From NCBI RefSeq assembly GCF_003334305.1, contig NZ_QOWS01000038.1: a DNA stretch of 23,984 nucleotides; one strand, given 5' to 3'. This stretch comes from Escherichia coli. Its GTDB lineage: Bacteria > Pseudomonadota > Gammaproteobacteria > Enterobacterales > Enterobacteriaceae. The number at the start of each line of letters is the position of its first letter. Within the stretch, counting starts at the first letter, position 1. The position numbers and the translations under genes are program-made. Below, piece by piece: positions 1-1,641 of the stretch. Under the pieces are notes generated by a model. That model made no database searches and was not told where the DNA came from. It worked only from the letters and a program-made list of their open reading frames with translations.

Positions 1-533
1 TCGGTACTTTTTTGCGCGTGCTCCTCATAAAAGAAGATGCCTTCCTCCGCCGCCATCCGGCACAGGAAATCGTAATCGGTTTCGCCGTACTGGACACAAA
101 ACTCACGGGAAGGATGCGGCTCGCTGAACAGCGGACTCCACTCGGTCACACCGTTTTCCTTCAGGATCGTAGCGAGGATGCTTTCGATGTCCTCATTCTG
201 GAAGATACGGAAGTTCTGGCGCAGCCCTGTGCGCCACAGCGGCGGGCACACCTTCATGCTGTACAGCATCTGGTTTTTGTCGTTCTCCCCCAGTTCAAAC
301 CAGGTCACCACACCTTTCACCCGGCGCTGTACGTCATCGCCCTGCCATACCGTCAGGTAGGCCATTTTGTCCAGCACCTGCGCAAATTCAAGGGAAAGAA
401 ACTGCTGACTGACCAGAGAAAGGTCGAGGGAAAAAAGTGAAGAGAGTGACTGGGTGAGATGAAAGGAAACCACCGCAAAAGCATCCGGTGGCAGGCCGTC
501 CACTTCAAGTGTGAAACGTAATCCGGTTGACAT
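1..533 (-). CDS. rhsE: VgrG-family protein (T6SS spike, gp27-like N-terminal domain), 5' part only; gene continues beyond the left edge of the window
   Basis: Hand translation of the minus strand from ATG at 531-533 gives an open frame to position 1 (about 177 codons) beginning MSTGLRFTLEVDGLPPDAFAVVSFHL and containing EFCVQYGETDYDFLCRMAAEEGIFFYEEH, which I recognise as a VgrG N-terminus. The supplied + ORF 12..440 is its antisense shadow. Symbol is from recalled K-12 synteny (yncG-yncH-rhsE) and is less certain than the family call. Confidence 0.8.
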   Translation of the reverse strand, partial: MSTGLRFTLEVDGLPPDAFAVVSFHLTQSLSSLFSLDLSLVSQQFLSLEFAQVLDKMAYLTVWQGDDVQRRVKGVVTWFELGENDKNQMLYSMKVCPPLWRTGLRQNFRIFQNEDIESILATILKENGVTEWSPLFSEPHPSREFCVQYGETDYDFLCRMAAEEGIFFYEEHAQKST

Positions 534-1353
534 AGCAACCTCCGTGAAAATGAATAATAATCCGCACATATTGCATGTACAACATGTCGGGCGGATGAGA
601 TAAGCGAGTCGACATCTGGCGTTACCGGGGAATATCAGAAAAATGTCATGGTTATGTGATGATTTAGTCTGGGATTTTACTTCAGAGAAACGGGTGTCTG
701 TTTAGTCAACAAAATAATCACAAACGCAACGGATGGGTTCTCGACGTTATTCACGACAGGCTCGTACATTACAGCGAGTAATAAAAAACCTGATATGCAA
801 AGTCAAACCAATATTCATAATGTCTTTTTATTCACAACAATAAATAATTCAATAACAATCATTGAAATGAATGATGATTTGTATTAGGAATATACGCTAC
901 CGCCCCACCCTGATAACATGATCTGCACATTGCCATCTTAACGTCGTTAAACACTGGCTTAATAGTGGATATTTCAAATTAGGAATTTATTAAATTCACC
1001 TGATGAATATCATAAGCAAATAGCATAGAAAATAATGACAATTCCCCCGAGGGGACCATTTCCAAAGCACTGCACCACCACCAGGTGCCCGGATGATCTT
1101 GCTTCAGTGGTAAGAGTACCTGATTCATTGTTCCCAAAATGATGTTTTCCCCGGCCCCGCCAATAATGTGCAGCTCTCACGTGATAATCTATTGATTAGG
1201 TTATATTAAGAATCAATATTTAAAATACATCCATTTTCTTGAATAAATCAACATGTTTATTTATCAATTGCTGTTTTAGCTCTGACTCATCAAGCTCTCC
1301 ATATTTGTCCTACAGATAATTGCGAATAAATACAGAGAACGCCATTTATCCTT

Positions 1354-1566
1354 TTAGCATACCTGCCGGATATTTTTATTTGTATTAATATTAATTGCAT
1401 CTCCAACTCCGAGCATATCCATCATTAAAAACTTTTTGAGATTATAGAATACCTGTGATAACAAGTGAAACATCTGCACAATGTGAATAGTTAGTTTCTT
1501 TTCAGAGGAAATGAAATAGACAAGCTGAATGAAGGGGAGAGTGATATAAATCAAAAAACATAACAT
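1354..1566 (-). CDS. yncH: small hypothetical protein, 70 aa, inside the AT-rich spacer
   Basis: ATG-initiated 70-codon ORF in the supplied track; size and position match recalled K-12 yncH next to yncG. Very AT-rich, low-complexity sequence, so coding status is uncertain. Confidence 0.45.
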   Translation of the reverse strand: MLCFLIYITLPFIQLVYFISSEKKLTIHIVQMFHLLSQVFYNLKKFLMMDMLGVGDAININTNKNIRQVC

Positions 1567-1641
1567 GAATTTAATTAATTACGCCCATCATTGTGGATAA
1601 AGTTACTGAATAATAAATAACATAATCCTCTGGTATCCCAC

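What the first reader, a model, noticed from the sequence alone, without database searches (positions are those of the whole stretch)
1..1640. Orphan vgrG start next to an 0.8-kb AT-rich spacer
A VgrG-family gene (T6SS spike) begins at 533 and runs out of the window. Upstream of it, 534-1353 is visibly far more AT-rich than the flanking core genes and holds no convincing ORF except the low-complexity 70-codon yncH. This composition break is typical of the edge of a horizontally acquired Rhs/VgrG element and of H-NS-silenced DNA. No T6SS structural genes are seen in the window. The spacer could hold unannotated promoters, small ORFs or sRNAs controlling vgrG/rhs expression.
Basis: partly seen in the sequence, partly recalled or inferred. 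Interest (0 to 1): 0.4.

Follow-up and report, generated by a model that had tools for sequence, protein, structure and literature searches.

The report
Known vgrE/RhsE island upstream spacer
This is the well-known "vgrE–RhsE" auxiliary type VI secretion toxin island of E. coli, and the AT-rich spacer is its H-NS-bound upstream region, so the finding is real but ordinary; the one uncharacterised item is a 120-bp conserved non-coding block.

Summary
A VgrG gene starts at 533 on the minus strand and runs off the window. Positions 534-1641 are 35.6% GC, the lowest 1.1 kb in the window. No ORF in 534-1353 exceeds 56 codons, and yncH lies at 1354-1566.

The window is 100% identical to E. coli H15. 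There the vgrG is intact (702 aa) and is followed by a frameshifted RHS core, small ORFs, a second RHS core and ISAs1. This is the classical RhsE element, the "vgrE orphan locus" of EHEC. H15 has a complete T6SS cluster 1.28 Mb away and a third vgrG-Rhs island beside cusS.

The spacer is composite:
- **534-~1040** is a vgrG-linked leader, also present at the cusS island.
- **1011-1641** is a locus-specific AT-rich segment holding yncH.

The island edge is the yncG stop codon (1642), not 1353.

For the K-12 ortholog, papers report H-NS binding, RNA polymerase binding in vitro, and a weak PhoB site (window 633-650). I found no sRNA, no RNA structure and no conserved small ORF. yncH is an Escherichia-only ORFan with no sign of purifying selection.

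One thing appears undescribed: a ~120-bp block (891-1010) found in 5292 of 5426 E. coli genomes. It sits upstream of three unrelated T6SS effector cassettes, all with the same breakpoint.

The parts
1..533 (-). 5' end (177 of 702 codons) of vgrG, known as vgrE in the Rhs and EHEC literature. It is the spike protein of an auxiliary T6SS island.
   Evidence: Translation. NCBIfam hits. RefSeq annotation WP_073527850.1. It is 94% identical to the main-cluster vgrG of the same genome and 93% identical to the cusS-linked vgrG. Differences from the cusS copy fall mostly at third codon positions (6/3/26).
539..543 (-). Shine-Dalgarno GGAGG for vgrG.
   Evidence: Read from the sequence. It is conserved in the cusS paralog.
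534..890 (-). vgrG-proximal leader or regulatory DNA, shared only with the cusS-linked vgrG island.
   Evidence: 66-81% identical to the cusS copy, with indels. No similarity to the leaders of the other cassette types. K-12 keeps 601-890 but has lost 534-600.
633..650 (+). Pho box TATCAGAAAAATGTCATG. This is a weak PhoB ChIP-seq site in K-12, and its direct repeats point away from vgrG.
   Evidence: PMC10294691 Table 1 gives a peak at NC_000913.3 position 1527862, score 1, H-NS-bound. I mapped it to window ~643 through. The site is not conserved in the cusS paralog.
778..806 (-). Predicted sigma-70 promoter TTGACT-17-TATTAC, reading toward vgrG.
   Evidence: PMC3946193 Table 3 lists an RpoD holoenzyme gSELEX site with H-NS in the yncH>rhsE spacer. 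I located the sequence. The evidence is weak: the -10 lacks the final T, the cusS paralog has an 8-bp deletion in the spacer, and strain E597 has an ~11-bp deletion at about 764-773 just downstream of the -10.
891..1010 (.). Conserved non-coding block. Block A is ACGCTACCGCCCCACCCTGATAACATGATCTGCACATTGCCATCTTAACGT. Block B is AATTAGGAATTTATTAAATTCAC and contains the palindrome GAATTTAATAAATTC. Its role is unknown.
   Evidence: Present in 5292 of 5426 complete E. coli genomes, 1-3 copies each, never annotated. It lies upstream of three unrelated T6SS cassettes, and all three unrelated leader types diverge at the same point, next to 'ACGCTACC' (window ~891-893); a fourth, IS-only strain instead lacks this stretch. 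It is 91% identical to the cusS copy against 73% for the neighbouring leader (Fisher p = 2.6e-5). No RNA structure or covariation.
1043..1055 (-). Short GC hairpin TCCCCTCGGGGGA followed by a T-rich tail. It is terminator-like and lies at the end of homology with the cusS copy.
   Evidence: One search found 1 site against 1.6 expected by chance, so it is not significant on its own.
1011..1353 (.). Locus-specific AT-rich non-coding DNA, present only in the vgrE-type haplotype.
   Evidence: It has no counterpart at the cusS locus. At the yncG locus the other haplotypes have only about 125-170 nt between the block and the yncG stop or yncG remnant. No ORF exceeds 56 aa.
1354..1566 (-). yncH (DUF5445), an annotated 70-codon ORF whose coding status is doubtful.
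   Evidence: Pfam PF17520, E = 1.3e-39. No NCBIfam HMM hit. All 158 database relatives are at least 83% identical and every source-named one is Escherichia or 'Enterobacteriaceae'. Synonymous/non-synonymous counts are 2/7, 3/3 and 3/1 against three strains, and the start is disrupted in E597. No Shine-Dalgarno is visible upstream.
1567..1641 (.). Last 75 nt of the variable AT-rich tract. The border with conserved chromosome is the yncG stop codon at 1642.
   Evidence: Strains with other cassettes match the window only from 1644 onward (hits H25-H29).
1642..2259 (-). yncG, a glutathione S-transferase family gene. It is the first flanking gene outside the island.
   Evidence: It is degraded and divergent in the EC554 and 1162C haplotypes.
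600..601 (.). Junction of the ~4.4-kb K-12 deletion, which removed 534-600, all of vgrE and the 5' half of rhsE.
   Evidence: K-12 rhsE aligns to L001 14579-16154 and then jumps to L001 20601, which is window 601.

Best explanation
Positions 1-1641 are the upstream end of the RhsE element, the 'vgrE orphan locus'. This is an auxiliary type VI secretion effector island in the variable yncG-pptA/yddH interval of E. coli.

vgrE (starting at 533, minus strand) encodes a spike protein. It would load the downstream Rhs toxin onto the T6SS machine encoded 1.28 Mb away beside aspV. In this strain the rhs gene is frameshifted, so the toxin is probably inactive.

The 1.1-kb AT-rich tract is the island's non-coding control region plus cassette-turnover debris:
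- 534-~1040 is a leader that travels with this vgrG lineage and is duplicated at the cusS island.
- 1011-1641 is haplotype-specific DNA containing the doubtful ORF yncH.

The tract most likely works as a xenogeneic, H-NS-coated promoter region. RNA polymerase can bind it, but H-NS filaments keep vgrE-rhsE silent under laboratory conditions.

What is shown: the identity and architecture of the island, the presence of a T6SS cluster, the composition, and the borders. What is taken from papers on K-12: H-NS, RpoD holoenzyme and PhoB binding. What is inferred: that H-NS actually silences vgrE transcription in this strain, and where the promoter lies.
For: - The window is 100% identical to E. coli H15. 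The annotated order there is vgrG (intact), RHS core, small ORFs, IS fragments, RHS core, dsORF-h1, ISAs1, pptA.
- Full-length VgrG scores 627 and 447 bits on TIGR03361 and TIGR01646. The RHS core model NF041261 is covered by two ORFs that meet at model position 718, so the gene is frameshifted. A ~144-aa tip follows with no Pfam domain.
- H15 has a complete T6SS cluster next to aspV: tssA, B, C, E, F, G, H, J, K, M, a DotU/IcmH-type gene (TssL-equivalent), hcp, plus hcp-vgrG-RHS. It has a third vgrG-DcrB-Rhs island at cusS.
- The interval is variable. Other strains have PAAR-vgrG', metallopeptidase/immunity-vgrG-DcrB-Rhs, or ISAs1 only, and K-12 has a 4.4-kb deletion.
- GC is 35.6% against a window mean of 49.8%.
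- Papers:
  - The EHEC ortholog is named vgrE (Z2262), within the 'vgrE orphan locus Z2253-Z2262' (PMC5363993, PMC12981562).
  - rhsE lies downstream of a vgrG (PMC7216683).
  - yncG..yddH is listed as a variable genomic region (PMC12928451).
  - The K-12 yncH>rhsE spacer binds RpoD holoenzyme and H-NS in vitro (PMC3946193).
  - The same spacer is flagged H-NS-bound in vivo, with a weak PhoB peak (PMC10294691).
Against: - No transcription start data exist for this strain.
- The consensus scan found fewer promoter-like sites than shuffled sequence (4 against 6.9 +/- 3.0).
- The published best-match promoter has a poor -10 and is broken in the cusS paralog.
- H-NS and RNA polymerase binding were measured in K-12, where vgrE is deleted.
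- Polymorphism among orthologs is spread fairly evenly across the spacer (1.5-6.7% variable columns). Most of the tract therefore shows no clear constraint.
- An EHEC study that swapped the promoter of the paralogous cusS-linked vgrG still saw no protein (PMC13141884). Silencing may therefore not be purely transcriptional.
Confidence: 0.85

Rival explanations
1. The spacer is mostly functionless debris. Repeated replacement and deletion of T6SS cassettes at this hotspot left scars: old leaders, gene remnants, and a spurious ORF called yncH. Only the ~100 bp next to vgrG matter. The tract is AT-rich because unconstrained and foreign E. coli DNA drifts that way.
For: - Variation among five orthologs is as high in yncH (5.6% variable columns) as in the flanking non-coding DNA.
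- yncH shows no excess of synonymous changes and lacks a Shine-Dalgarno.
- YncH relatives are all at least 83% identical and Escherichia-only.
- K-12 tolerates a deletion into the spacer.
- Some strains carry IS1 insertions in it (hits H31 and H53).
- E597 has an ~11-bp deletion.
- Small ORFs are not preserved in the paralog.
Against: - The 891-1010 block is much better conserved between paralogs than its surroundings (91% against 73%, p = 2.6e-5) and is in 97.5% of genomes.
- The leader 534-1040 was co-duplicated with vgrG to a second locus.
- RNA polymerase, H-NS and PhoB bind the K-12 ortholog (PMC3946193, PMC10294691).
Confidence: 0.35
2. The 120-bp block (891-1010) is a functional cis-element shared by different T6SS effector cassettes. 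It could be a common promoter or operator bound by an unidentified regulator. It could instead be a fixed recombination anchor at which cassettes are exchanged.
For: - The block, with the same left edge, precedes three unrelated leaders and first genes, 277-358 nt upstream of the start codon. The first genes are vgrG, a PAAR gene, and a metallopeptidase effector.
- It is the local conservation peak between the vgrE and cusS loci.
- Block B holds a perfect 15-bp palindrome, read from the sequence.
- Strain Z1323 carries a window-type block A inside an EC554-type background, which looks like a short conversion tract.
- A -35/-10-like pair, TTATCA-16-TATATT, spans the left edge on the vgrG strand.
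- Control of E. coli orphan vgrG islands is stated to be unknown (PMC13141884).
Against: - Between the divergent yncG-locus haplotypes the block is only 74-81% identical. By eye, that is about the same as the neighbouring yncG remnants in the alignment, which I did not quantify. Shared ancestry of the flank could explain this.
- The peak in the cusS comparison could come from gene conversion rather than selection.
- The -10-like hexamer is degenerate in the other haplotypes (TATACA, TTTACA, TATTTA; alignment).
- By eye I saw no match to common regulator motifs (Fur, CRP, LexA, NtrC, ArcA, sigma-54). This was not a formal scan.
- The block is essentially Escherichia-only. Apart from Escherichia sp. 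E1V33, the scan found a MAG labelled Citrobacter that carries an E. coli-like yncG region, and one Mesorhizobium hit that I take to be chance.
Confidence: 0.25
3. The spacer encodes an unannotated small RNA or small protein that controls vgrG/rhs expression.
For: - An 820-bp gap with no gene is long for E. coli.
- A strong promoter-like site (TTCACT-17-TATAAT, 10 of 12) lies at 1469-1441, and a hairpin at 1055-1043, both on the minus strand.
- The 3' third of yncH is invariant at the DNA level among five strains.
Against: - No Rfam match even at E <= 1.
- Fold z-scores are +0.59 and -0.99 for the conserved block, and -1.6, +0.85 and +0.51 for the vgrG-proximal leader.
- Covariation term is 0.1 kcal/mol.
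- No ORF in 534-1040 is preserved in the paralog.
- Promoter-like and terminator-like sites are not enriched over shuffles.
Confidence: 0.08

Closest known systems
RhsE element / 'vgrE orphan locus' of E. coli. Examples are EHEC EDL933 Z2253-Z2262 and the truncated rhsE-ydcD-yncI region of K-12.
   Same: - Same chromosomal site, between yncG/yncH and pptA.
- Same gene order: vgrE, RHS core with a C-terminal tip, small downstream ORFs, further RHS cores or tips, and an ISAs1/H-repeat.
- The window matches O157:H7 genomes at 98.1% and K-12 at 97.6-97.9% from position 601 onward.
   Different: - In H15 both RHS core genes are frameshifted.
- K-12 has lost vgrE and half of rhsE.
- EDL933 has rhsE split into three ORFs (PMC12981562).
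cusS-linked vgrG-DcrB(EagR)-Rhs island, called 'vgrG-2' or 'vgrG1', Z0700-Z0707 in EHEC.
   Same: - A paralogous vgrG, 93% identical over the first 533 nt.
- About 500 bp of shared upstream leader, including the 120-bp block.
- Present in the same genome, H15.
   Different: - It has an EagR/DcrB-type chaperone gene and a different Rhs clade.
- The leader is only 66-81% identical.
- The PhoB box, the predicted sigma-70 promoter and the proximal promoter-like site are all disrupted there.
- There is no yncH.
H-NS-silenced horizontally acquired AT-rich DNA (xenogeneic silencing).
   Same: AT-rich DNA (35.6% GC) at the edge of an exchangeable island. H-NS binding of the K-12 ortholog is reported in vitro and in vivo (PMC3946193, PMC10294691).
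   Different: Silencing of vgrE itself has not been measured. The GC content is no lower than that of ordinary intergenic DNA in the same window.
Auxiliary vgrG islands under post-transcriptional control, for example RsmA repression of orphan vgrG genes in P. aeruginosa as cited in PMC13141884.
   Same: - An orphan vgrG with a long leader.
- Two GGA motifs lie 20 nt apart, one of them in the Shine-Dalgarno. Both are kept in the paralogs despite 66% local identity.
   Different: No CsrA binding data exist. Two GGA motifs this close are expected by chance quite often. No conserved hairpin presents them.

Membership tests
VgrG / TssI (T6SS spike) | gp27-like and gp5-like N-terminal region that matches the curated VgrG models above their cut-offs. 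| tested here: met
   The full gene (L001 18425-20533) scores 627.5 bits on TIGR03361 (cut-off 186) and 446.9 bits on TIGR01646 (cut-off 121.8). The window fragment alone scores 127.2 bits on TIGR01646, above cut-off, and 177.2 bits on TIGR03361, just below.
Auxiliary ('orphan') vgrG effector island | The vgrG lies away from the structural T6SS cluster, and that cluster exists elsewhere in the same genome. | tested here: met
   A complete tss cluster lies next to aspV at H15 positions 4.712-4.740 Mb, while the island is at 1.248 Mb.
Auxiliary ('orphan') vgrG effector island | The vgrG is followed by an intact effector gene and a cognate immunity gene. | tested here: inconclusive
   An RHS core with a ~144-aa tip and two small ORFs (73 and 69 aa) follow. 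The RHS gene is split by a frameshift in this assembly. The orthologs in E597, O157 and 2023CK-01509 are not flagged as pseudogenes; each is cut by the fetched stretch and their lengths are consistent with a full gene. Toxin and immunity activity were not tested.
Rhs element (RhsE) | An RHS core protein (YD repeats plus the RHS-associated core domain) with a variable C-terminal extension and a linked H-repeat/ISAs1. | tested here: met
   NF041261 RHS_core is covered at positions 1-718 and 718-1261 by two ORFs. TIGR03696 and TIGR01643 also hit. Pfam RHS PF03527 hits. ISAs1 genes are annotated next to pptA.
H-NS-silenced xenogeneic DNA | AT-rich relative to the genome. | tested here: met
   35.6% GC against 49.8% for the window.
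H-NS-silenced xenogeneic DNA | H-NS occupancy, and de-repression when hns is lost. | not testable with these tools
   Occupancy is reported only for the K-12 ortholog (PMC3946193 Table 3; PMC10294691 Table 1). I found no expression data for vgrE.
YncH / DUF5445 as a real protein-coding gene | Matches the family model. | tested here: met
   PF17520, E = 1.3e-39, covering residues 19-70. The family consists only of these near-identical Escherichia sequences.
YncH / DUF5445 as a real protein-coding gene | Purifying selection and translation signals. | tested here: inconclusive
   Synonymous/non-synonymous counts are 2/7 (K-12), 3/3 and 3/1. The start is disrupted in E597. No Shine-Dalgarno lies within 15 nt upstream. 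There are too few substitutions for a firm test.
Known RNA family (sRNA, riboswitch or leader) | A match to an Rfam covariance model, or a significant and conserved secondary structure. | tested here: not met
   No Rfam match at E <= 1 over 1-2600. Fold z-scores are not significant. No covariation.
Pho regulon promoter | A Pho box bound by PhoB, oriented toward the regulated gene and replacing the -35, with PhoB-dependent expression. | tested here: inconclusive
   A box at 633-650 is bound weakly in K-12 (ChIP score 1, PMC10294691). Its direct repeats read on the plus strand, away from vgrG. Expression is listed as 'ND' in that paper. The box is not conserved in the cusS paralog.
tRNA-associated genomic island | A tRNA or tmRNA gene at the island border. 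| tested here: not met
   ARAGORN finds no tRNA or tmRNA gene anywhere in the window.

The most novel reading that the evidence does not exclude
The 120-bp block at 891-1010 is a conserved, Escherichia-specific 'landing pad'. It would be a fixed regulatory and/or recombination element behind which unrelated T6SS effector cassettes have repeatedly been swapped at exactly the same nucleotide. The cassettes seen are vgrE-Rhs, PAAR-vgrG, and metallopeptidase/immunity-vgrG-EagR-Rhs. The block has also been copied with vgrG to the cusS locus. If so, it would give all these auxiliary islands a common upstream control input.
Probability: 0.2. Interest if true: 0.45.

Novelty: already known. Interest (0 to 1): 0.15.

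Why it matters
The island is textbook material. The vgr genes were named from the RhsE- and RhsG-linked genes of E. coli, and the NCBIfam model is even called vgr_GE. The finding therefore adds nothing new about T6SS biology.

Two points have modest practical value.
- How E. coli switches on its orphan vgrG-Rhs islands is openly described as unknown (PMC13141884). This analysis narrows where to look. The candidates are a ~500-bp leader shared by two islands, a 120-bp block common to several cassette types, an H-NS-bound tract, and a weak PhoB site.
- yncH (DUF5445) behaves like non-coding DNA and probably should not be treated as a gene without experimental support.

Tried and rejected
1. **Sigma-54 promoter.** A published RpoN gSELEX peak is listed as 'yncH > ydcD' at 1527534 (PMC8743547). 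The pspF/pspA control peak shows that table uses U00096.2 coordinates. The site therefore lies inside the 3' part of the rhsE pseudogene, not in this spacer. Rejected.
2. **Rfam.** Nothing over 1-2600 at E <= 1.
3. **RNA structure of the conserved block.** Both strands give non-significant z-scores, and a 7-sequence RNAalifold gives a covariation term of 0.1. Rejected.
4. **Conserved hairpin or Shine-Dalgarno sequestration in the vgrG-proximal leader.** Not conserved between paralogs.
5. **Small ORFs in 534-1040.** All are broken by indels or stops, or lack a start, in the cusS paralog.
6. **Promoter and terminator scan.** No enrichment over shuffles.
7. **Direct, inverted and tandem repeats, and tRNAs, as island borders.** Only short chance-level repeats, no tandem arrays, no tRNA.
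8. **Scan of 100,044 species genomes for the block's core.** Three hits:
   - Escherichia sp. E1V33.
   - A MAG labelled Citrobacter with an E. coli-like yncG region.
   - One Mesorhizobium hit that I did not examine and take to be chance.
   The block is not a widespread element.
9. **The block as the terminus of a mobile unit at cusS.** The island there extends ~275 bp further, into the 3' end of cusS, so 1040 is only a homology breakpoint.
10. **Regulator motifs checked by eye in the block** (Fur, CRP, LexA, NtrC, ArcA, IHF, sigma-54). None fits. This was inspection, not a formal scan.
11. **Leader of the main-cluster vgrG.** Not related to this spacer.
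Full report
**Observation**

Reading 533->1 on the minus strand gives 177 sense codons. They match the curated VgrG models: TIGR01646 vgr_GE at 127 bits (cut-off 121.8) and TIGR03361 at 177 bits. A GGAGG Shine-Dalgarno lies 5 nt upstream.

GC content falls from 54% in the vgrG part to 37.3% over 534-1353 and 35.6% over 534-1641. It then rises to 47% in yncG and 52% in ansP. The 1.1-kb tract is the lowest of that size in the 24-kb window (mean 49.8%, sd 3.9).

Two qualifications apply. Other intergenic regions here are also 37-44% GC, so the unusual property is the 820-bp length. 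The low-GC tract also runs through yncH to 1641.

ORFs inside 534-1353 reach at most 56 aa. yncH is at 1354-1566 on the minus strand. The annotated part of the window (1-22400) holds no T6SS gene other than vgrG. The last ~1.6 kb was not annotated; it holds one unidentified 478-aa ORF.

**Identity**

The first 2.4 kb of the window is 100% identical to E. coli H15 (NZ_CP010178.1) and 97-99.8% identical to thousands of other E. coli genomes. Extending 20 kb to the left shows, in order:
- vgrG, intact, 702 aa
- an RHS core protein, frameshifted
- two small ORFs
- ISAs1 and IS1 fragments
- a second RHS core, frameshifted
- dsORF-h1
- an ISAs1 pseudogene
- pptA

Full-length VgrG scores 627 and 447 bits on the two VgrG models. 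The first RHS core is covered by two ORFs that meet at model position 718. It carries a ~144-aa C-terminal tip with no Pfam domain.

This is the classical RhsE element. In EHEC the orthologous genes are called vgrE (Z2262) and the 'vgrE orphan locus' (PMC5363993, PMC12981562, PMC7216683).

H15 has a complete T6SS cluster beside aspV, 1.28 Mb away. It also has a third vgrG-DcrB-Rhs island beside cusS. 'Orphan' is therefore correct in the sense of an auxiliary island serving a machine encoded elsewhere.

**Borders and variability**

Of 5426 complete E. coli genomes, 2991 carry the full arrangement.
- K-12 matches only from 601 onward. A ~4.4-kb deletion joins window 601 to the middle of rhsE.
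- Other strains match only from 1644, the yncG stop, and carry different content:
  - O145:H28 RM13516 has PAAR and a truncated vgrG.
  - EC554, Z1323 and Escherichia sp. E1V33 have a metallopeptidase effector, a lipoprotein, vgrG, a DcrB-like gene and Rhs, with only a decayed yncG.
  - 1162C has only an ISAs1.

The exchangeable region therefore starts right after yncG, and yncH belongs to it. The same interval is listed as a variable genomic region in a comparative study (PMC12928451). No tRNA, tandem array or meaningful repeat marks the border.

**Anatomy of the spacer**

The cusS-linked island shares window 1 to ~1040. Identity to the cusS copy by segment:

| Segment | Identity |
|---|---|
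| vgrG coding part (1-533) | 93%, with 26 of 35 differences at third codon positions |
| 534-800 | 66-73%, with indels |
| 801-890 | 81% |
| 891-944 | 94.5% |
| 945-1010 | 88% |
| 1011-1040 | 60% |
| beyond 1040 | none |

The spacer therefore has three parts: a vgrG-linked leader, a conserved block at 891-1010, and haplotype-specific AT-rich DNA with yncH at 1011-1641.

The main-cluster vgrG of H15 is 94% identical in its coding part but has an unrelated upstream region.

**The 120-bp block**

The block occurs in 5292 of 5426 genomes, in 1-3 copies, and is never annotated. All sampled copies lie either at the yncG/ansP locus or at the cusS locus.

At the yncG locus it precedes three leaders with no detectable similarity to one another. 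All three diverge from the block at the same point, next to 'ACGCTACC', 277-358 nt upstream of the first gene.

Against the cusS copy, the block is significantly better conserved than the adjacent leader: 110/121 against 262/357, Fisher p = 2.6e-5. Strain Z1323 has a window-type block A inside an EC554-type background, which suggests short conversion tracts.

The block does not behave as a structured RNA. Fold z-scores are +0.59 and -0.99, and the covariation term is 0.1. Outside E. coli, a scan of one genome for each of 100,044 species found three hits: Escherichia sp. E1V33, a MAG labelled Citrobacter with an E. coli-like yncG region, and one Mesorhizobium hit that I did not examine and take to be chance.

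Between the divergent yncG-locus haplotypes the block is 74-81% identical. By eye this is no better than the neighbouring yncG remnants in the alignment, which I did not quantify. Shared ancestry plus gene conversion therefore remains a sufficient explanation. A regulatory or recombination role is possible but unproven.

**Outside evidence on function**

- The yncH>rhsE spacer is one of the type-B spacers that bind RpoD holoenzyme in vitro in K-12. It is marked as containing H-NS sites. The best-match promoter given is TTGACT-17-TATTAC (PMC3946193), which I located at 806-778 on the vgrG strand. Its -10 is poor, and the spacing is destroyed in the cusS paralog.
- PhoB ChIP-seq gives a weak peak (score 1) at NC_000913.3 position 1527862, flagged H-NS-bound in vivo, with site TATCAGAAAAATGTCATG (PMC10294691). 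This maps to window 633-650. The repeats point away from vgrG, and the site is not conserved in the paralog.
- A published sigma-54 peak attributed to 'yncH > ydcD' lies inside rhsE once the coordinate system is corrected (PMC8743547).
- For the paralogous cusS island in EHEC, swapping the promoter did not yield VgrG or Rhs protein. The authors state that regulators of the orphan islands are unknown (PMC13141884).

**What is not there**

- No Rfam family matches.
- Promoter-like and terminator-like sites are not enriched.
- No small ORF is conserved between paralogs.
- No conserved leader hairpin exists.

yncH matches Pfam DUF5445. That family consists only of sequences at least 83% identical, and every one that a source names is from Escherichia or 'Enterobacteriaceae' (158 hits in 5.8 billion proteins). 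Gene callers disagree on its start. Substitutions are not biased toward synonymous changes (2/7, 3/3, 3/1). It varies as much as the flanking non-coding DNA. I see no Shine-Dalgarno upstream. Its coding status is doubtful.

**Verdict**

The feature is a long-known island type at a long-known locus.

The most likely mechanism is an H-NS-coated, AT-rich control region upstream of vgrE-rhsE. Transcription would start somewhere in 534-~1000 and be silent under laboratory conditions. Binding is documented for K-12; silencing and promoter position are inferred.

The only loose end of some interest is the 120-bp block shared by different T6SS cassettes. Overall interest is low.

Noticed in passing
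window 633-650 (+): A Pho box that is a published weak PhoB ChIP-seq site in K-12 (PMC10294691). It is oriented away from vgrG. If active, it would drive plus-strand transcription into the spacer, antisense to the vgrG leader.
   Followed up: partly
window 1441-1469 (-), inside yncH: The best sigma-70-like match in the region (TTCACT-17-TATAAT, 10 of 12) lies inside yncH. It points the same way as yncH, just before the part of yncH that is invariant at the DNA level in five strains.
   Followed up: no
window 541-543 and 561-563 (-): Two GGA motifs 20 nt apart in the vgrG leader, one of them in the Shine-Dalgarno. Both are kept in the cusS paralog although the surrounding sequence is only 66% identical. 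They could be CsrA sites, but this is speculative.
   Followed up: partly
L001 14143-18358 and 7037-11298 (left of the window): Both RHS core genes of the island are annotated as frameshifted in H15. Orthologs in other strains are not flagged as pseudogenes. This could be real decay or assembly indels.
   Followed up: partly
spacer in strains 2015C-3121 and HCP6S3_I2 (hits H31 and H53): Some strains carry an IS1 inserted within the 534-1641 tract.
   Followed up: no
window ~764-773: Strain E597 has an ~11-bp deletion just downstream of the predicted TATTAC -10. It also has an altered yncH start.
   Followed up: no
window 19046-19200 (-): The hicA toxin gene of the hicAB toxin-antitoxin pair is annotated as frameshifted in this strain, while hicB is intact.
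   Followed up: no
L026-type haplotypes: L006 5222-5752, L011 6262-7145: In the EC554/E1V33 haplotype the first cassette gene is a 176-aa HEMMH-motif metallopeptidase followed by a 118-aa lipoprotein. RefSeq labels it 'type IV secretion protein Rhs'. It is a pseudogene in EC554 and Z1323 but intact in Escherichia sp. E1V33.
   Followed up: no
L003 ~5740-5800 versus L008 ~5990-6010: O145 RM13516 has a 26-bp segment (TAAATACGCTACCGCCCTACCCTGAT) flanked by CCCTGAT direct repeats. Strain 1162C lacks it, which looks like slippage or deletion at the left edge of the conserved block.
   Followed up: no
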